Shown: positions 14,602 through 45,518, counted from the first letter of the stretch. The stretch is DNA of 45,518 nucleotides from a virus (IMGVR_UViG_3300028586_000006:1-45518), one strand, 5' to 3'. Notes: a model not told the origin generated them from the letters alone. Numbers and translations: made by a program.

Positions 14602-16254
14602 CTACCCCTGCAACACGCGAAACCGCGCTTCCTCGTAATCGTCAGCGCCGCCACCGATCGTGACGTCAGCGTAACCACCCACATCGTAGCGCAACTTCGG
14701 AGTGGTGACCAGACTGTACAGGACAGCGTCGCCGCGATCCGGCGAACGCCCAAGCCGCTTCTTGATATCGTCCTTGCTCTCGACCTTGATCCCCGCCGTC
14801 GTCAGCTCCCACTTCGGCGCCGCGAGATCGGACAGCAGTTCCGCGTCATCGGGCAGCGCGATCGGGTTCGGGTTGCGGGGATCGAGCGCTTCGCGCATCC
14901 GCCAGTGCAGCTCGGCACGCAGGTTCACGAACCGCAGCAACCCGCTGGCGTCGTTGCCGAGGCTCTTGGCCGCACCGTTGATGGCGACCGTGTGGACGTT
15001 GCCTTTCGTCAGGAAATCGTAGGGGCTGGTGCCGATACCGACGACGTCGAGGTGAACCGGTGCCGCGTCGGTGCGGAAGCGGATGACCTGCGCTGCCGCC
15101 AGCGCGCCGTCGTTGACGTTGACGCCCTTGATCGCGAGGATACGGTCGAACCACGTCCCATGCCGACGCGAGATCACCATCTTGTCCTTGCCGGTGGCGC
15201 CGGTGTTGGACCCCATGTTACCGCCGCGCGCCGCGTCGACGCCCATGCTGTCCATCGGGCCTTTCGCATCACGCGATTGCCAGCGGCGCATTGCCGCTTC
15301 GATCCACTCGGTCGGGATCACCTGGTCTTGCGGATCTTCGACGCCGGCCATGAAGTCACCTCGTAGCATCTGCTCGCGCAGGACAGGCGGCAGCTGCTGA
15401 AGCTGACGCAGATACGCGCCATCCGCTGCCAGGAACGGGTTATCGGACAGATGCGCCGTGATGAACGTCCGGCTCGTCGGCGTCACGATATCCTCGATCG
15501 CGTAATCGGCCGGCTCGAACTCATAGACGGGCTTACCCTGCACGATGACGAACGGCGCGTTACCATGCTCGGGCGGCAGCATGTAGTCGGGATCGTCGCC
15601 GATCGTGGCGAACCAGCGCAGCTCGCCATCGCGAGCCGGGTTCGGGTGCTTCCGGTCGAGCCACGGCGCGAAGAACTTGATCACCCATCGCCCTTCGGCG
15701 GTCGTCGGCGGGTTGAATGTGAGGATGACGCGGGTCTTCTGCCCGGGGACGTGGGTGCGGACCCACCCCATCGTATAGCGGACCTGGCTCTCGCGCATCT
15801 GCGTGGCCTCGTCATACGCCTTCAGGTCGTAGTCGACGCCCTGCTGCTTCTCTTCGTCGCCCTCGTTCTCCATGCCGGCGAACTCGATGACGCGATCGAC
15901 GTCGTCGGGACCGCGCAGCGCCCAGGTGCTGCCTTGGCTGGAGTAGCCGTCACGGCTGCCGAGCGAGAGCGCGATGTCCTGCACGAACTTGCGCGTCGTC
16001 ACCTTTTCCTGCCGGATGATGAGACTGCGGCGGTGCGCGGTCGTCGCCAGCCCGCGGATCAGCGCCGACTTGCCGCCGCCGGCCGCGCCGCCATAGCCGA
16101 TGATGTCGGCCTCGCTGTCATAGGCCATCGTCTGCTTGCCCTCGTTGGGCGTGAACAGCGGCTCGTAGCCGTTGACGATAGCGTCGAAGCGTAGCCGCTC
16201 GCTCGGCGTCATCGCCGCGACGAGCGTACGGATTTCAGCGGCGGTGTAGGGCAC
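14602..16254 (-). CDS. terL: Terminase large subunit
   Basis: 550 aa with a GTG start. The Walker A motif is [13 protein letters not shown]. It has an N-terminal ATPase domain and a C-terminal nuclease domain of the expected length, and lies beside terS and the portal gene. Confidence 0.9.
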
Positions 16255-16366
16255 GCAGCGCGGCGTCCTTCAGCTCGCCTCCGATAACGCCTATCGCGCC
16301 GCACGCCAACGCGATGACGCTGCCGCCGACGGTGATCTTCAGGAACTCGACACCGGCTTCGATCAC
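16235..16366 (-). CDS. Possible 43-aa membrane micro-protein between terS and terL
   Basis: The GTG start overlaps the terS stop (GTGA). My translation is [43 protein letters not shown], with one hydrophobic helix. It fills a 108-nt gap that is otherwise empty and overlaps the terL start by 20 nt. Confidence 0.3.
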   Translation of the reverse strand: MIEAGVEFLKITVGGSVIALACGAIGVIGGELKDAALRALHRR

Positions 16367-16905
16367 GACAGTAGCTCCTTCGCCTTGGCGTCGATCACGA
16401 TATCGCGGGGCGCGATACGGGTACGCGTCGCCACATCACGCAGCATCGCCTCGGCGCGGTCCGCGGCGTCCGGTGCGGGCTTGTTGAGAGCCTGGCCATC
16501 GGTCGTCAGGTCGAGCTTCGGCCCGTAGGTCTTGGGTTTCAGCATCTGCGCGAACTTGATCTCGGCATCGATCCGCAGCTTCATCACCTTCGGGTCACGC
16601 GCCAGCATGGCACGCTCCAGCGCGACACCGGAGAGCCCGTCGAGCGGCACGACTTCGCCGAGGTCGGCAATGTGCTGCGCTTTCGTCAGGCGAGCCTCGA
16701 TACCGAGTTCACGGGCACGGGCGAGTTCGCTTTGCAGATCAGGGTTGCGGCTGACCCATGTCCAGAACGTACCGCTAGACGGCATCCCGTCATCGTCCTG
16801 CAGGATCGTCGTCACCGCGCGCCCACACGCCACCTGCACGAACACATGATCGATCATGCGCTGACGCGTATCGGCATCGTAGGTCGTAGAAATCGGAGCA
16901 CCCAT
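16363..16905 (-). CDS. terS: Terminase small subunit
   Basis: 180 aa. The N-terminal HTH-like region ...VACGRAVTTILQDDDGMPSSGTFWTWVSRNPDLQSELARAR is typical of small terminases. It is the first gene of the late operon, directly upstream of terL. Confidence 0.75.
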   Translation of the reverse strand: MGAPISTTYDADTRQRMIDHVFVQVACGRAVTTILQDDDGMPSSGTFWTWVSRNPDLQSELARARELGIEARLTKAQHIADLGEVVPLDGLSGVALERAMLARDPKVMKLRIDAEIKFAQMLKPKTYGPKLDLTTDGQALNKPAPDAADRAEAMLRDVATRTRIAPRDIVIDAKAKELLS

Positions 16906-17018
16906 CGCCGAAATATGCCCTTTCCCTCGTCAACACGCAAGCCTGCCAACGCTCTATCGAAAATCCGATAGACATCCCTGCGATTTCGCATTGAGCAAAA
17001 TTTTCACCGGGTTTGTAT

Positions 17019-17308
17019 GGCGGACCGGCGGGCGGGCAATCCCTTACGCGCACCCTACAGGTGCATAATAACTCCTACTATTACCATATTTCCATTTAAC
17101 TTATAGAAAAAAGCTGTCCGCCGGTCCGCCACGTCAAAAACGACGTATTTCTGCGGGTTTCACGCCGGACAGCTATTCGGACAGCCGCCTGTAAAACCGT
17201 CCGCCTGCCCGCCCAAACCTGTCCGCCATCACAAAATCGCGATGCTCGACACTGCGCGGACAGCTCGGCGGACAGCGCGCGGACGGTTCGCGGACCGGAT
17301 CGGACGTG
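17019..17308. repeat. Iteron cluster: about 12 copies of a CGGAC-core motif (best form GGCGGACAGC) in both orientations
   Basis: - + strand copies at 17019, 17165, 17177, 17256, 17267, 17279, 17290 and 17300.
- Inverted copies (..GTCCGCC) at 17113, 17123, 17198 and 17219.
- An AT-rich tract lies at 17065-17112 and a hairpin GCACC-ctaca-GGTGC at 17050-17064. Confidence 0.85.
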
Positions 17309-17326
17309 CTTTCCGCTTGACAGTGT

Positions 17327-17371
17327 AAAGCGATAACGCTACGCCGCGCTATCACAATCTGGAGAACGGCG
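17327..17371 (+). promoter_or_regulatory. Putative promoter plus conserved leader for the small-membrane-protein cassette
   Basis: CTTGACAGTGTAAAGCGATAACGCTACGCC...AATCTGGAGAACGGCGATG is near-parallel to the promoter region at 23298-23357 (CTTGACAGCGTAAAGTCGATAGCGG...AATCTGGAGGACGAAAATG). The -10 element is uncertain (GCTA-type). Confidence 0.45.
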
Positions 17372-17755
17372 ATGGACACGCGCGAACGTGAAGCCAAAAT
17401 TACCGAAATAATCAAAGCAGCCGAGCGGATGAATATCGGCCCTGCCTGCGTGACGTGCCGCTTCGCACGAGACGCAAATTATTCGGCGCTAGGCTATTGC
17501 CGAAATCCCGTCGCGAAATTGGATGCGATCGTCAGCACGCAAAGTGTCAGCACGAGCTCTCGCCGAAAGCTGACCGATATGAGGTCAGCGACAGGCTTAT
17601 GCGGACCGGAGGCGCTCTTGTATCAGCGACGAATGCTCTTCATCACGCCGTTTTGGCGACAGCCCACAGACGGGCAGGCAGTGCTTCATGCAATCCCGCA
17701 AATCATTTTCCTGGTTCTGATTTTTCTGGCCGCCATGACATGGGTGATGGCGTGA
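17372..17755 (+). CDS. Hypothetical Cys-containing protein with a C-terminal transmembrane helix
   Basis: 127 aa with the SD TCTGGAGAAC. Motifs: CVTCRF...GYCRNP...LCGP. The C-terminus is QIIFLVLIFLAAMTWVMA. G+C is lower than in the backbone. Confidence 0.75.
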   Translation: MDTREREAKITEIIKAAERMNIGPACVTCRFARDANYSALGYCRNPVAKLDAIVSTQSVSTSSRRKLTDMRSATGLCGPEALLYQRRMLFITPFWRQPTDGQAVLHAIPQIIFLVLIFLAAMTWVMA

Positions 17756-27191: not shown

Positions 27192-27578
27192 GTGGAAATC
27201 TGGCGCGACATCCCCGGATACGAGGGGCGCTATCAGGTCAGTGACGAAGGGCGCGTACGGTCTCTTGATCGACGCGTTCGTCTTTGGACGCTGCAAGGTG
27301 GTGAGCAGTTTGTCAAAAAAGCAGGTCGGGTGCTAACCCCCGGCGTTCTATCGACAGGACATCTCTACGTCTTCCTCGGGCGGGGCAATAGGCGGGCGGT
27401 TCATAGGCTCGTGCTAGAGACGTTTGAAGGGCCATGTCCCGCCGGTATGGAATGTCTGCATGGACCGGATGCAAATCCCGCTAACAATCACCAAAATAAT
27501 CTTCGGTGGGGGACACGAAGCGAAAACTTGAAAGACGATTACGCACGAGGCGTCCGCACGCCAATGGTGTATCTATGA
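27192..27578 (+). CDS. HNH homing endonuclease (NUMOD4 + HNH_3 type)
   Basis: 128 aa with a GTG start after TCTGGAGAAC. WRDIPGYEGRYQVSDEGRVRSL is a NUMOD4-like motif; VHRLVLETFEG...CLHGPDANPANNHQNNLRWGT..EN is the HNH_3 core. G+C is lower. The stop overlaps the DNA polymerase ATG (ATGA). Confidence 0.85.
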   Translation: MEIWRDIPGYEGRYQVSDEGRVRSLDRRVRLWTLQGGEQFVKKAGRVLTPGVLSTGHLYVFLGRGNRRAVHRLVLETFEGPCPAGMECLHGPDANPANNHQNNLRWGTRSENLKDDYARGVRTPMVYL

Positions 27579-29590
27579 CTATTTTGTTTCTGGATATCGA
27601 GAGCTATTCCGATATCCCGATCCGCGACGGCACGCACCGCTATGCCGAGAGCGTCGAGATCACCGTCGCGTCTTGGGCGTTCGATGACGAGCCCGAAGAC
27701 GTGGTCGACCTGACGCTCGGCGGTGGGTTGCCGCGGCGGGTCGTCGACGCGATCCGCGATCCCGCGGTGACAATCGTCGGCCACAACTTTGGCATGTTCG
27801 ACCGCGTCGTGCTGCGCGCGGCCGGGCTCGACATTCCCGCCGATCGGCTGTGGGACACGATGGTGCAGGCTCTGGCGCATGGCCTACCGGGCAGCCTCGA
27901 ACGGCTCGGCGACATCTTCGGCATTAGCGAGGATCAGGCGAAGCTCGCCAGCGGGAAGCGGCTGATCCAGATGTTCTGCAAGCCGGCGCCGAAGAACCAG
28001 ACAGTGCGCCGCCGCACCCGGTTGACTGATCCGAAGGAGTGGGCCGAGTTCCTCGATTACGCGAAGCGCGATATCCCGGCGATGCGCTTCCTCTACCGCA
28101 ACATGCCGCGCTGGAACTATCCCGGCGATCGCACGGCGAACGGCTACCGCGGCGAGTACGACAACTGGCTGCTCGACCAGGCGATCAACGATCGCGGGAT
28201 GTGCGTTGACACCGATCTGGCGCGCGCGGCGATCGACGCCGTCAACAAGGCGCAGAAGGTGCTCGACGCTCGCACCGCCGAGATGACCGATGACGAGGTG
28301 GCGCGCACCTCGCAGCGCGACAAGCTGCTTGCGCATCTGCTCGCCGAATACGGCGTCACGCTGCCCGATATGGCGAAGACCACTCTCGAGCGACGGCTGC
28401 ACGATGACAATCTGCCCGACGCGGTGCGCGAGCTGCTCGCGAACCGGCTGGAGAGCAGCACGACGTCGAACAGCAAATACAACGCGCTGCTGCGCGGCGT
28501 GTCGCGCGATGGCCGACTGCGCGGCACGCTCCAGTTCTGCGGCGCCGCGCGCACCGGCCGTGATGCCGGGCGGTTGTTCCAGCCGCAGAACCTGCCGCGA
28601 CCCGATATGGCGGCAGCGGATATCGAACACGGTATCGCGGCGCTGAAGGCGGGCACCGCGCACCTGCTGTTCGACAGCCCGATCAAGCTGGCGAGCAACG
28701 CTATCCGCGGTTGCATCGTCGCCGCGCCCGGGCGCAAGCTGGTCGTCGGCGACTTCGCGCAGATCGAAGCGCGTGTCCTGCCCTGGCTGGCGGGTGAGCA
28801 GTGGAAGCTCGATGCGTTCGCCGCCTATGACGCCGGCGAGGGGCCGGATCTCTACAAGGCGACCGCGGCGCGCGTCACCGGTAAGCCCGTCGACGAGGTG
28901 ACGAAGCCCGACCGTCAGCGCTATGGCAAGGTGCCCGAGCTCGCGTGTGGCTACGGCGGCGCGAAGGGCGCGTTCTTGTCCATGTCCCGCCTGCTCGGCG
29001 GTGACGAGATGCCGGAAGCGCAGGCCAAGGAGATCGTCGACGCGTGGCGCGCGGCAAACCCCGCGATCGCCGACTGGGATGACGGGCTATGGGCGCTGCT
29101 GAACCGCGCTGCCTTTGACGCGATGCGGTCACCGGGTCAGGTGTTCTCGGTCAACGGCAAGATGACTTTCGAGAAGTGGCGCGCGTGGCTGCGCTTCACG
29201 CTGCCGAGTGGACGCGCGCTCTGCTACGCGGATCCGCAGATCATCGAAGACCCGCGGATGCCGGGCAAGATGACGCTCTCCTACATGGGGCTGAACAGCT
29301 ATACCCGCAAATGGGAACGGCTGACGACCTACGGCGGCAAGCTGTCGGCGGACGGTACGCAGGCGACAGCGCGCGATCTGCTATGGCACGCAGCGCAGAA
29401 CGTTGAGCGCGCTGGCTATCCGATCCTGACCCGCATCCACGACGAACTGGTGACCGAACCGCTTGACAGCGACAAGTTCAATGTGGCAGGGATGATCGCC
29501 GAGATGACCCGCCGTCCGTGGTGGATCGACGATGCGCTGCCCCTCGCCGCTGACGGCTTCGAGGGACCGCGTTATCGGAAGGACGGCTAA
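27575..29590 (+). CDS. Family A DNA polymerase with a 3'-5' exonuclease domain
   Basis: 671 aa from ATG 27575.
- ExoI: FLDIESYS.
- Motif A: VVGDFAQIEARVL.
- Motif B: RQRYGKVPELACGYGGA.
- Motif C: RIHDELV. Confidence 0.9.
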   Translation: MTILFLDIESYSDIPIRDGTHRYAESVEITVASWAFDDEPEDVVDLTLGGGLPRRVVDAIRDPAVTIVGHNFGMFDRVVLRAAGLDIPADRLWDTMVQALAHGLPGSLERLGDIFGISEDQAKLASGKRLIQMFCKPAPKNQTVRRRTRLTDPKEWAEFLDYAKRDIPAMRFLYRNMPRWNYPGDRTANGYRGEYDNWLLDQAINDRGMCVDTDLARAAIDAVNKAQKVLDARTAEMTDDEVARTSQRDKLLAHLLAEYGVTLPDMAKTTLERRLHDDNLPDAVRELLANRLESSTTSNSKYNALLRGVSRDGRLRGTLQFCGAARTGRDAGRLFQPQNLPRPDMAAADIEHGIAALKAGTAHLLFDSPIKLASNAIRGCIVAAPGRKLVVGDFAQIEARVLPWLAGEQWKLDAFAAYDAGEGPDLYKATAARVTGKPVDEVTKPDRQRYGKVPELACGYGGAKGAFLSMSRLLGGDEMPEAQAKEIVDAWRAANPAIADWDDGLWALLNRAAFDAMRSPGQVFSVNGKMTFEKWRAWLRFTLPSGRALCYADPQIIEDPRMPGKMTLSYMGLNSYTRKWERLTTYGGKLSADGTQATARDLLWHAAQNVERAGYPILTRIHDELVTEPLDSDKFNVAGMIAEMTRRPWWIDDALPLAADGFEGPRYRKDG

Positions 29591-45159: not shown

Positions 45160-45518
45160 CAGCCGATCCTGCTCTGCGCACGCATCTTGCTGGTCTGCGA
45201 CGCTGCGCCGAGCAGCGTACCTGCCGCGCCGATAGCGCCCGACACGAACGCGGCATTGCCTTCGCTGCGCGCCGCGCGACCTTTCATCACGTAGTTCGCC
45301 GCGTTGATATCGTAGCCCTGCACCTCGCGCCGGGTGTTCTCGGCGATCGTGCTGCTATCCTCGTATCCAATTTGCGCGGTGTCGAGTTGCATGTCCATCG
45401 TCGAGCCGAAGGTCAGGTCGAGCCCGTTCGCGGCGCTGGCGGCGCGTTGCGCGCCGATCGACTGCGCGAGCATCCGATAGCGCTGAAGCTGCGCCGTCTG
45501 TCCGCGCGATACCGCATC
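45159..45518 (-). CDS. C-terminal part of the gp14-position internal virion protein (same gene as 1..283; 45392-45518 duplicates 1-127)
   Basis: Track ORF 45159..45473 (MLAQSIGAQRAASAANGLDL...) stays open to the window edge and is in frame with 1..283 through the end repeat. Confidence 0.75.
   Translation of the reverse strand, partial: DAVSRGQTAQLQRYRMLAQSIGAQRAASAANGLDLTFGSTMDMQLDTAQIGYEDSSTIAENTRREVQGYDINAANYVMKGRAARSEGNAAFVSGAIGAAGTLLGAASQTSKMRAQSRIG
45392..45518. repeat. Second copy of the 127-bp terminal repeat
   Basis: Identical to 1-127 by direct reading. Confidence 0.95.

What the first reader, a model, noticed from the sequence alone, without database searches (positions are those of the whole stretch)
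16906..17371. 466-bp non-coding hub: about 12 CGGAC-core iterons, an AT-rich tract and an inverted repeat between terS and the rightward cassette (candidate ori and/or pac region)
**Seen.** This is the largest non-coding region of the genome.
- 17019-17308 holds about 12 copies of a CGGAC core in both orientations. Several are the extended form GGCGGACAGC (17113-17122 inverted, 17256-17264, 17267-17276).
- My rough expectation for CGGAC on both strands of 290 bp at this base composition is about 1.
- 17065-17112 is the most AT-rich stretch in the window (aataactcctactattaccatatttccatttaacttatagaaaaaag). It is preceded by the hairpin GCACC-ctaca-GGTGC (17050-17064).
- An inverted repeat TCTATCG-aaaatc-CGATAGA lies at 16953-16972. 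Its CGATA half-site recurs in the early promoters at 23314-23328 and about 17337.

**Established knowledge.** Iterons next to an AT-rich DNA-unwinding element define many phage and plasmid origins. Repeated boxes upstream of terS define pac sites in SPP1-type phages.

**Inference.** This is the replication origin, the packaging recognition site, or a late-promoter activator array. The binding protein is unknown.
Basis: partly seen in the sequence, partly recalled or inferred. Interest (0 to 1): 0.65.

Follow-up and report, generated by a model that had tools for sequence, protein, structure and literature searches.

The report
Phage replication origin with CGGAC iterons
The repeat-rich gap upstream of terS is most likely this phage's replication origin, of the type known from staphylococcal pathogenicity islands (SaPIs), read by the phage's own primase-helicase; it is a solid annotation of a known kind, not a new kind of element.

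Summary
CGGAC occurs 12 times in 290 bp, against 0.73 expected and at most 4 in any other window. The 48-bp tract at 17065-17112 is the most AT-rich in the genome, and both inverted repeats are real.

It is the SaPI/PICI type.
- Two inverted iteron pairs, GGCGGAC(A/C/G)G, flank an 80-bp core made of a GC palindrome and a G-free AT tract. Nine more iterons lie on the helicase side.
- The likely reader is the phage's fused PrimPol-VapE primase-helicase (18280-20544, minus strand). Its ATPase is homologous to SaPI1 Rep (PDB 7PDS). Its modelled C-terminus is a winged helix.
- Relatives, including BPP-1 and Caulobacter SR18, have the same layout with different iterons.
- Iteron type follows the helicase C-terminal domain, not TerS.
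- The hub stays beside the helicase gene where no terminase is nearby.

A pac-site role is not supported. A separate conserved terS promoter candidate, with its own palindrome, occupies 16906-16972.

No binding or replication experiment exists, so the function is inferred. Novelty: new member of a known kind.

The parts
17012..17038 (+). terS-side iteron arm: GGCGGAC (17019-17025), then one-mismatch copies GGCGGGC (17027-33) and CGGGC (17033-37). It is one arm of the inverted repeat that brackets the core.
   Evidence: I3: 14-nt perfect inverted repeat 17018-31 / 17118-31. Equivalent arms occur in relatives.
17039..17064 (.). GC-rich part of the core, with the hairpin GCACC-ctaca-GGTGC (17050-17064) and a CGTAAGG-like box.
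   Evidence: The strand containing the core, taken as single-stranded DNA, folds with z = -5.2. Relatives have a GC-rich palindromic segment at the same place.
17064..17112 (.). AT-rich, strand-asymmetric tract: G-free on the + strand, so C-free on the helicase-sense strand. Proposed unwinding and priming zone.
   Evidence: Top-ranked AT-rich 48-mer (79%) and longest G-free run of the window. Homologous C-poor (mostly C-free) cores occur in 15 related hubs, many sharing TTTCT.A..GG and AGTAGTATAGG boxes.
17113..17131 (-). Helicase-side iteron arm: two full iterons, CTGTCCGCC (17114-22) and CGGTCCGCC (17122-30), 8 bp apart and inverted relative to the terS-side arm.
17164..17184 (+). Pair of iterons CGGACAGC, 12 bp apart (17166, 17178).
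   Evidence: D4.
17197..17227 (-). Three inverted iterons: CCGTCCGCC (17197-205), one-mismatch CTGCCCGCC (17205-13) and CTGTCCGCC (17219-27).
17255..17307 (+). Five direct iterons at 17257, 17269, 17280, 17291 and 17301. Spacing is 12, 11, 11 and 10 bp, about one helical turn. The array ends 12 bp from the -35 box of the rightward promoter.
   Evidence: Relative L228 has three such copies at 21-22-bp spacing.
18280..20544 (-). Fused primase-helicase (PriRep), the proposed initiator: Prim-Pol domain, VapE/SF3 ATPase and C-terminal winged helix (about 18301-18444). The real start is probably the Met at 20544, not the ORF's first start codon at 20919.
   Evidence: Pfam PF09250 + PF05272. phmmer hit to 7PDS SaPI1 Rep, E 6e-27. 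AlphaFold2 model pLDDT 90.9, ending helix-helix-beta hairpin. Foldseek top hit 7pds, E 3e-20, TM 0.75-0.77. Start inferred from the alignment.
16906..16952 (-). terS-proximal block conserved in relatives whatever their iteron type. Candidate terS promoter (TTGCGT-17 nt-CATATT) placed to give a leaderless or near-leaderless terS mRNA.
   Evidence: Conserved columns in alignment A1 and in L228. No Shine-Dalgarno sequence precedes the ATG. The promoter assignment is inference; the consensus scan did not call it.
16953..16972 (.). Perfect palindrome TCTATCG-N6-CGATAGA just upstream of the conserved terS block. Candidate operator for an unidentified regulator; not part of the iteron system.
   Evidence: Unique in the window. 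Relatives carry different palindromes at the same place: CCGATCGG in two of L011-L013 (L012, L013), TATGGGA-AA-TCCCATA in L228.
17316..17371 (+). Rightward promoter and ribosome-site cassette for ORF 17372-17755 (CTTGACAG.GTAAAG.CGATA.CG ... CAATCTGGAG.ACG...ATG). A near-copy lies at 23297-23357.
   Evidence: The same cassette occurs in L228.
16363..16905 (-). terS (Sf6-type small terminase).
   Evidence: PF20901, phrog_1482. TerS similarity does not track iteron type.

Best explanation
The hub at 17012-17308 is the phage's origin of replication, of the self-loading-helicase type described for staphylococcal pathogenicity islands (SaPI) and other phage-inducible chromosomal islands (PICIs).

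Proposed mechanism:
1. The phage's fused primase-helicase (PrimPol + VapE-type SF3 ATPase + C-terminal winged helix; 18280-20544, minus strand) binds the 9-bp iterons GGCGGAC(A/C/G)G through its winged helix.
2. Two iteron pairs in opposite orientation (17019-17033 and 17114-17130) flank an 80-bp core. The core holds a GC-rich palindrome and a 48-bp, 79% A+T, strand-asymmetric tract.
3. That tract melts, and two hexamers load, one on each side.
4. The PrimPol domain primes synthesis, and the phage's family-A DNA polymerase (27506-29590) extends.
5. The nine further iterons on the helicase side (17166-17305) probably raise local occupancy or cooperativity. Because they abut the -35 box of the rightward promoter at 17318, they may also couple initiator binding to that promoter.

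The terS-proximal 65 bp (16906-16972) is a separate element: a conserved terS promoter candidate with its own palindromic operator.

Shown here: the sequence anatomy and its statistics, homology and predicted fold of the initiator, and co-variation of iterons with the winged helix. Inferred: binding, melting, loading and initiation.
For: 1. **Anatomy matches the published definition.** In SaPIs, Rep is a self-loading SF3 helicase whose C-terminal winged helix reads penta- or hexanucleotide iterons. There are 6-12 iterons just downstream of rep, an AT-rich centre, and at least two iterons on each side pointing in opposite directions (PMC9371898). Gram-negative PICIs have the same layout, functionally tested for EcCICFT073 (PMC6092414). 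The window has 12 CGGAC cores, an AT-rich centre and inverted pairs on both sides.
2. **The initiator is homologous.**
   - The only PDB sequence hit of the window protein is SaPI1 Rep (7PDS), E 6e-27.
   - The AlphaFold2 model (pLDDT 90.9) ends in helix-helix-beta hairpin.
   - Its best structural match is 7pds: E 3e-20, TM 0.75-0.77.
3. **The layout recurs with lineage-specific iterons.** Fifteen related hubs have the same plan of iterons, C-poor (mostly C-free) core and inverted iterons. These include BPP-1 (TTTGCCTCG), Caulobacter SR18 (GTAACCACCT), L011-L013 (GGTGAACACCT), L094 (GGTTACGACC), L099 (GTCTACAC), and Xenorhabdus prophage L107 (GTAACAACCT).
4. **Iteron type follows the winged helix, not TerS.**
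   - Window versus L011-L013: the PrimPol domain is 70-73% identical, the same as within that trio. The helicase is 54-55% (80-89% within the trio). The last 60 aa are 25-28% (66-80% within the trio).
   - L228 has a winged helix 92% identical to the window's, the same GGCGGAC(A/G)G iterons and a near-identical core. Its TerS N-terminal 70 aa are nearer to L012's (70%) than to the window's (64%).
   - In the L094/L097/L099/L100 clade the helicase core is 95-100% identical but the last 55 aa are 65-84% identical. The four phages have four different iteron sets. Their TerS types pair L094 with L100 and L097 with L099, and their bbp27-like helix-turn-helix proteins are nearly identical (L094 vs L099).
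5. **The hub travels with the helicase gene.** It begins at or within about 120 bp of the helicase stop codon in L094, L099, L104, L105, L107 and L108, and about 100-150 bp after the stop, beyond a terminator, in L102. L102, L105 and L107 have no terminase within 4 kb.
6. **No second site.** The extended iteron forms no other cluster in the genome and sits at no other promoter.
Against: - No experiment supports it. Nothing here shows binding, melting or initiation.
- In the window the hub lies about 970 bp from the helicase stop, behind terminators and a convergent ORF. This is also so in BPP-1, L011-L013 and L228.
- The array is lopsided: 11 perfect cores on the helicase side of the AT tract and one perfect plus two degenerate copies on the terS side.
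- In every Rauchvirus-like relative the hub also lies upstream of the packaging genes, so synteny alone cannot exclude a packaging or late-transcription role.
- Co-variation rests on few independent lineages. In the second clade another variable zone (aa 110-180 of the primase part) also changes.
- L104 and L107 have similar iterons but dissimilar winged helices.
- GC skew shows no inflection at the hub, though here it only tracks gene direction.
Confidence: 0.8

Rival explanations
1. The repeats are the packaging recognition (pac) site. TerS oligomers would bind the CGGAC boxes upstream of their own gene, as in SPP1, and direct the first terminase cut.
For: The hub lies directly upstream of terS. 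In Rauchvirus-like relatives it always precedes the terS-terL block. Helically phased repeats would suit DNA wrapping around a TerS ring.
Against: - TerS similarity does not follow iteron type. L011 and L012 share GAACACCT iterons with only 28% identity in the TerS N-terminal 60 aa.
- L228 shares the window's iterons, but its TerS N-terminus is closer to L012's.
- L097 and L099 have 86% identical TerS N-termini and different iterons.
- The hub sits at the helicase stop codon in loci with no terminase within 4 kb.
- In the SR18 GenBank record the 2.08-kb terminal repeat ends inside terS (position 2078), about 620 bp from that phage's hub.
- From established knowledge, P22's pac site lies within its terS gene; Sf6 packaging is reported to start in a region around terS.
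Confidence: 0.06
2. The repeats are mainly a transcription-factor array. They would switch on the late (terS) promoter or control the divergent rightward promoter, with no role in replication.
For: The region lies between divergent transcription units. Five phased iterons end 12 bp from the -35 box of the promoter at 17318. A weak sigma-70-like match lies in the AT tract on the minus strand. A late promoter must exist somewhere here, because terminators follow the helicase gene.
Against: - The extended iteron occurs at no other promoter and forms no other cluster.
- The twin promoter cassette at 23297 has no iterons.
- In many relatives the hub starts at the helicase stop codon with no promoter context, and it co-varies with the helicase C-terminal domain.
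- The small HTH protein next to the hub in L094 and L099 is nearly identical although their iterons differ.
- A distinct conserved promoter-like block with its own palindrome already exists at 16906-16972.
- A secondary regulatory role for the initiator bound at the iterons is not excluded.
Confidence: 0.1
3. The inverted repeat and core encode a structured RNA or a recombination site such as attP. The paired changes in the two arms would then reflect base-pairing or recombinase arm sites.
For: The two arms change together between phages, which mimics compensatory change. The core strand folds well as a single strand, z = -5.2.
Against: - No Rfam family matches anywhere in the hub.
- Most iterons are extra direct copies outside any stem: five phased copies in the window and three in L228.
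- No integrase was found among the window's proteins scanned.
- The hub tracks a helicase gene, not an integrase.
Confidence: 0.02

Closest known systems
SaPI origins (SaPI1, SaPIbov1, SaPI5) with Rep or PriRep self-loading helicases
   Same: - The initiator is an SF3/VapE helicase with a C-terminal winged helix; in SaPI5 it is fused to the primase.
- Short iterons (5-6 nt core), 6-12 copies, lie 3' of rep.
- The centre is AT-rich, with at least two iterons on each side in opposite orientation.
- Each element has its own Rep-iteron specificity (PMC9371898).
- The window protein hits 7PDS by sequence and by fold.
   Different: - The host element is a complete 45-kb podophage of high-GC Gram-negative type, not a satellite island.
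- The hub lies about 970 bp from the rep stop, behind a convergent gene cassette.
- The iteron distribution is lopsided (11 versus 1-3).
- The core is strand-asymmetric and partly conserved across lineages with different iterons.
- ATPase identity to SaPI1 Rep is only about 20%.
Gram-negative PICI pri-rep-ori modules (for example EcCICFT073)
   Same: Two iteron sets flank an AT-rich region immediately 3' of the initiator gene. The module was shown functional on a plasmid (PMC6092414).
   Different: [quoted passage not shown] Here it sits in bona fide phages, including BPP-1 and Caulobacter SR18.
Enterococcus phage Abitsa predicted origin (Efquatrovirus)
   Same: A full phage with a PriRep5-like self-loading helicase and seven 10-bp iterons around an AT-rich region, identified by the same reasoning (PMC13517437).
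   Different: Gram-positive siphophage with unrelated iterons. No co-variation or comparative analysis was seen in the passages I read.
Satellite phage P4 alpha protein with ori and crr (from memory, not checked here)
   Same: One polypeptide combines primase, SF3 helicase and a C-terminal origin-binding domain that reads short iterons in both orientations. The GGTGAACA in relatives L011-L013 is the complement of the P4 type I iteron TGTTCACC as I recall it.
   Different: P4 needs a second cis site (crr); no second iteron cluster exists in the window. As I recall, the P4 primase is DnaG/Toprim-like rather than Prim-Pol.
SV40 and papillomavirus origins (large T antigen, E1)
   Same: SF3 helicase-initiators bind inverted pentanucleotide repeats that flank a palindrome and an AT tract, and they assemble as double hexamers. 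This is a mechanistic analogy from established knowledge.
   Different: The origin-binding domain is N-terminal to the helicase and is not a winged helix. These are eukaryotic viruses with no detectable sequence relationship in the DNA-binding part.

Membership tests
SaPI/PICI-type Pri-Rep origin (self-loading SF3 helicase initiator) | The initiator is an SF3 (VapE/D5-like) helicase homologous to SaPI Rep. | tested here: met
   PF05272, E 3e-53. phmmer to 7PDS_A, E 6.4e-27. Foldseek top hits 7pds chains, E 3e-20, TM 0.75-0.77.
SaPI/PICI-type Pri-Rep origin (self-loading SF3 helicase initiator) | The initiator has a C-terminal winged-helix DNA-binding domain. | tested here: met
   The AlphaFold2 model (pLDDT 90.9) ends H253-261, H270-282, E285-290, E295-300. 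Most of the 306-residue segment aligns to 7pds (TMq 0.75-0.77). This is a prediction, not a solved structure.
SaPI/PICI-type Pri-Rep origin (self-loading SF3 helicase initiator) | A primase (Prim-Pol) is adjacent to or fused with Rep. | tested here: met
   PF09250 Prim-Pol lies in the same polypeptide, the fused form seen in SaPI5.
SaPI/PICI-type Pri-Rep origin (self-loading SF3 helicase initiator) | Six to twelve short iterons lie immediately downstream of rep. | tested here: met
   The window has 12 CGGAC cores. The hub is downstream of rep but about 970 bp away, behind a convergent cassette. It directly abuts the stop codon in relatives L094, L099, L105, L107 and L108.
SaPI/PICI-type Pri-Rep origin (self-loading SF3 helicase initiator) | An AT-rich centre has at least two iterons on each side, pointing in opposite directions. 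| tested here: met
   GGCGGAC + GGCGGGC (one mismatch) at 17019-33 face GTCCGCC x2 at 17116-30 across the 79% A+T tract.
SaPI/PICI-type Pri-Rep origin (self-loading SF3 helicase initiator) | Rep and iterons have cognate specificity. | tested here: met
   Tested by comparison only. Iteron type segregates with winged-helix type in window/L228 versus L011-L013. The winged helix is a divergence hotspot in the L094/L097/L099/L100 clade.
SaPI/PICI-type Pri-Rep origin (self-loading SF3 helicase initiator) | Rep binds and melts the origin, and the module replicates autonomously. | not testable with these tools
   Needs EMSA or footprinting, permanganate probing and a plasmid maintenance assay.
pac site of SPP1/P22/Sf6-type headful phages | The site is recognised by TerS, so it should change together with the TerS DNA-binding domain. 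| tested here: not met
   TerS N-terminal similarity does not track iteron type.
pac site of SPP1/P22/Sf6-type headful phages | The packaging series starts at the site, so genome termini map there. | tested here: inconclusive
   Only assembled contigs exist for the source run. The window is a circular assembly with a 127-bp overlap. In SR18 the annotated terminal repeat ends inside terS, not in the hub.
Phage P4 ori/crr system | A second cis-acting iteron cluster (crr) lies at a distance from ori. | tested here: not met
   The three GGCGGACNG copies outside the hub are scattered singles.
Lambda-type or plasmid iteron origins (initiator recruits a host helicase) | A dedicated non-helicase initiator (O/RepA type) is present, often with the iterons inside its gene. 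| tested here: not met
   No such gene was seen among the window proteins scanned. The iterons are intergenic. An O-type arrangement was seen only in the unrelated prophage L010.

The most novel reading that the evidence does not exclude
The SaPI/PICI-type self-loading PriRep-origin module is native to, and widespread in, BPP-1-like podophages and related prophages, including the model phages BPP-1 and Caulobacter SR18/JessA.
- It carries a partly conserved, strand-asymmetric core. That core may be the melting or priming site used by the conserved PrimPol domain.
- Its specificity turns over fast, through in-place iteron replacement together with changes in, or exchange of, the helicase winged helix.
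- Satellite islands would then have taken their 'unique' origin from phages.
- The specificity switching could reflect competition between co-infecting replicons.
Probability: 0.35. Interest if true: 0.6.

Novelty: new member of a known kind. Interest (0 to 1): 0.4.

Why it matters
- It gives this phage, and by extension BPP-1 and the Caulobacter Jessaviruses, a concrete and testable origin with a named initiator domain.
- It shows that an origin layout once described as exclusive to phage-inducible islands is common in full phages. That bears on where satellite replication modules came from.
- The paired natural variants (window/L228 versus L011-L013; L094 versus L099) are ready-made material for mapping how a winged helix reads its iteron.
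- The same variants could serve for building orthogonal replicons in high-GC Gram-negative hosts.

Tried and rejected
- **Read-level termini analysis.** The only run holding the window (a leaf-litter metagenome) is kept as contigs, so no read-start pile-ups can be seen.
- **GC skew.** There is no inflection at 17 kb. The skew follows gene direction and turns near 24 kb.
- **TerS-based search of bacterial genomes.** It returned only a Qipengyuania prophage with a lambda-O-type arrangement and no synteny with the window.
- **Scan of viral contigs for paired CGGACAGC.** It gave more than 118 mostly single chance hits. The loci with dense clusters (L156, L182, L166, L185) carry no VapE homologue and are unrelated systems.
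- **Close homologues of the helicase and winged helix.** None exists in IMG/VR (best 49%) or in the protein database (best 54%, on a 1.4-kb contig). The metagenome scan then supplied L228.
- **Literature on BPP-1 and Jessavirus packaging.** The primary papers (PMC344406, PMC9391073) are not held.
- **Sigma-70 promoter in the AT tract.** One weak match on the minus strand is not conserved in relatives, so I did not adopt it.
- **CGATA half-site link.** The link between the 16953 palindrome and the rightward promoters is at chance frequency.
- **RNA and attP readings.** There is no Rfam match and no integrase was found.

Full report
**Context**

The window is a circularly closed assembly: positions 1-127 equal 45392-45518. 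It is therefore a complete phage genome of about 45.4 kb, at 64% G+C, from a leaf-litter metagenome.

Its nearest named relatives are the Rauchvirus-like podophages: Bordetella BPP-1 and Caulobacter SR18, JessA, RapA and BL94.

Gene order around the finding:
- terL, 14602-16254 (minus strand)
- terS, 16363-16905 (minus strand; Sf6-type, PF20901)
- the 466-bp gap
- a rightward ORF, 17372-17755
- terminators
- a leftward fused primase-helicase carrying Prim-Pol and VapE domains

Alignment with relatives places the true start of the primase-helicase at the Met at 20544.

- CGGAC occurs 12 times between 17021 and 17305, 8 on the + strand and 4 on the - strand. The genome-wide rate is 0.73 per 290 bp, no 290-bp window outside the hub holds more than 4, and Poisson P is about 2e-11.
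- The consensus is the 9-mer GGCGGAC(A/C/G)G. Six of its nine copies in the genome lie in the hub, and the other three are scattered singles.
- 17065-17112 is the most AT-rich 48-mer in the genome (79%). 17064-17105 is the longest G-free run.
- The hairpin at 17050-17064 and the palindrome at 16953-16972 are as described.
- A 14-nt perfect inverted repeat (17018-31 / 17118-31) brackets the AT tract.
- The five rightmost iterons are spaced about one helical turn apart.
- The proposed CGATA half-site link is not supported: CGATAG occurs 21 times against 21.6 expected.

**Anatomy**

Read in the sense of the helicase gene, the hub runs as follows:
1. Five direct iterons (17307-17255).
2. Three iterons in the opposite orientation (17227-17197).
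3. Two iterons (17184-17164).
4. Two iterons (17131-17113).
5. The AT tract, which is C-free on this strand.
6. A GC-rich palindrome.
7. One perfect and two degenerate iterons in the opposite orientation (17038-17012).

The core unit is therefore two iterons, an 80-bp core, and two inverted iterons.

The terS-proximal 65 bp is a different element. 16906-16952 is conserved in relatives whatever their iterons. It reads as a weak -35 box, a 17-nt spacer and CATATT, with no Shine-Dalgarno sequence before the ATG. I read it as a candidate promoter for a leaderless terS mRNA; this is inference. The palindrome at 16953-16972 lies just upstream. Relatives have other palindromes at that place.

**The same layout recurs in relatives, each with its own iterons**

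| Locus | Iteron |
|---|---|
| window, L228 | GGCGGAC(A/C/G)G |
| L011, L012, L013 (TerL 75-79% identical) | GGTGAACACCT |
| L018 | TGGGACA |
| Caulobacter SR18 | GTAACCACCT |
| Bordetella BPP-1 | TTTGCCTCG, two copies each side |
| L094 | GGTTACGACC |
| L099 | GTCTACAC |
| L097 | TG(C/T)AACA |
| L104 | GTAACAAC |
| L107 (Xenorhabdus prophage) | GTAACAACCT |
| L108 | AGACAACCT |

The cores are C-poor, mostly C-free, on the helicase-sense strand. Many share TTTCT.A..GG and AGTAGTATAGG boxes. L094 and L099 have homologous hub backbones in which the iterons have been replaced in place.

**Which protein reads the repeats**

1. *Window versus L011-L013.*
   - The PrimPol domain is 70-73% identical, no more distant than those three are from each other.
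   - The helicase falls to 54-55%, against 80-89% among the three.
   - The last 60 residues fall to 25-28%, against 66-80% among the three.
   - The TerS N-terminal 60 aa are only 28% identical between L011 and L012, although those two share iterons.
2. *L228 as a positive control.* This 2.6-kb metagenome contig has a C-terminal domain 92% identical to the window's. It carries GGCGGAC(A/G)G iterons and a near-identical AT core. Its TerS N-terminus is nevertheless closer to L012's (70%) than to the window's (64%).
3. *The L094/L097/L099/L100 clade.*
   - The helicase core is 95-100% identical and the last 55 aa are 65-84% identical. The four phages carry four different iteron sets.
   - TerS types pair L094 with L100 and L097 with L099, which does not match the iterons.
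   - The adjacent bbp27-like HTH protein is nearly identical between L094 and L099.
4. *Position.* The hub starts at or near the helicase stop codon in L094, L099, L104, L105, L107 and L108, and about 100-150 bp after it in L102. L102, L105 and L107 have no terminase within 4 kb.

**What the initiator is**

- The only PDB sequence match is 7PDS, E 6e-27. This is the SaPI1 Rep-DNA complex.
- An AlphaFold2 model of the last 306 residues (pLDDT 90.9) ends in helix, helix and a beta hairpin, which is a winged helix.
- Its best structural matches are the 7pds chains (E 3e-20, TM 0.75-0.77). Next come the NrS-1, SaPI5 PriRep, ASFV and poxvirus D5-type primase-helicases.

**Comparison with what is known**

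PMC9371898 describes SaPI Reps as follows:
- They are self-loading SF3 helicases that also act as initiators.
- Their C-terminal winged helix recognises penta- or hexanucleotide iterons.
- Six to twelve iterons lie just downstream of rep, around an AT-rich centre.
- At least two iterons on each side point in opposite directions.
- Two hexamers are thought to load, one on each side.

[quoted passage not shown] A 2026 paper predicts such an origin in Enterococcus phage Abitsa (PMC13517437).

The window meets every sequence-level criterion. Its departures are the 970-bp separation from rep (also seen in BPP-1, L011-L013 and L228), the lopsided iteron distribution, and the host element being a complete podophage.

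**Rivals**

- *pac site.* TerS does not co-vary with the iterons, and the hub stays with the helicase gene. In SR18 the depositors' 2.08-kb terminal repeat ends inside terS, about 620 bp from that phage's hub.
- *Pure transcription array.* This is unlikely because the iteron occurs at no other promoter. The twin promoter cassette at 23297 lacks iterons. A secondary regulatory effect on the promoter at 17318 remains possible.
- *Structured RNA or attP.* There is no Rfam match and no integrase was found. Most iterons are direct copies outside any possible stem.

**Verdict**

The hub is most likely the replication origin, with confidence about 0.8. It is a new member of a known kind. All functional steps remain inferred.

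Noticed in passing
window 1-127 and 45392-45518: The two ends of the window are an exact 127-bp direct repeat. The window is therefore a circularly closed assembly of a complete genome of about 45,391 bp. The overlap is probably the assembler's k-mer length, not a physical terminal repeat.
   Followed up: partly
window 17316-17376 and 23297-23357: Two rightward genes (17372-17755 and 23368-23670) are preceded by near-identical promoter and ribosome-site cassettes: CTTGACAG.GTAAAG.CGATA.CG ... CAATCTGGAG.ACG...ATGG. The same cassette occurs in relative L228 (about 1262-1320, minus strand). This suggests a co-regulated set of small rightward genes.
   Followed up: partly
window 18280-20919 (-): The long ORF has a 125-codon, arginine-rich 5' extension that is absent from all relatives. 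The real start is probably the Met at 20544 (MRYGA...). The protein is also mosaic: its PrimPol domain is as close to L011-L013 as those are to each other, while its helicase and winged helix come from a more distant lineage. A recombination joint therefore lies near the linker (aa ~440-500 of the alignment).
   Followed up: yes
window 27192-27578 (+): An HNH homing endonuclease (NUMOD4 + HNH_3) sits between the Enc34-type ssDNA-binding protein gene and the family-A DNA polymerase gene. It overlaps the annotated start of the polymerase ORF (27506).
   Followed up: no
window 1181-1254 (+): A tRNA-Trp (CCA) gene was found by both ARAGORN and Rfam.
   Followed up: no
window 17001-18000: The stretch holding the hub and the rightward ORF 17372-17755 has the second-lowest G+C of the genome in 1-kb bins (58.5% against ~64%; 5001-6000 is lower at 55.9%). 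The ORF has low GC3 and only one weak homologue (L013, 24% identity). It looks like an inserted accessory cassette between the helicase gene and the origin.
   Followed up: partly
window 21507-22118 (-): This ORF carries a Lar-like restriction-alleviation domain (PF14354), a possible anti-restriction gene in the early leftward operon.
   Followed up: no
L010 / L007 3545-3621: A Qipengyuania prophage found through a distant TerS match has about 20-nt repeats (AACCGTCCCAAAAACGGAACA) inside a replication-protein-like ORF. This is a lambda-O-type origin-in-gene arrangement, unrelated to the window's system.
   Followed up: no
L105 5690-6010 and L102 6380-6790: Long in-frame tandem repeats (about 33-nt and 18-21-nt units) lie in minus-strand ORFs downstream of the hubs in these two contigs. 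They look like repeat proteins, not iterons.
   Followed up: no
L156 1-200; L182 5540-5810: Unrelated viral contigs carry dense CGGACAG or GCTGTCCGC arrays: a 12-copy tandem array at a contig end, and a two-orientation cluster across a gene start. No VapE homologue is present in either locus. The same short word may serve other DNA-binding systems.
   Followed up: partly
L011-L013 hubs (for example L012 4588-4866): The iteron GGTGAACACC of these relatives contains the complement of the phage P4 type I iteron TGTTCACC, as I recall it from the literature. This may be coincidence or a shared winged-helix specificity. I did not check it against a P4 sequence.
   Followed up: no
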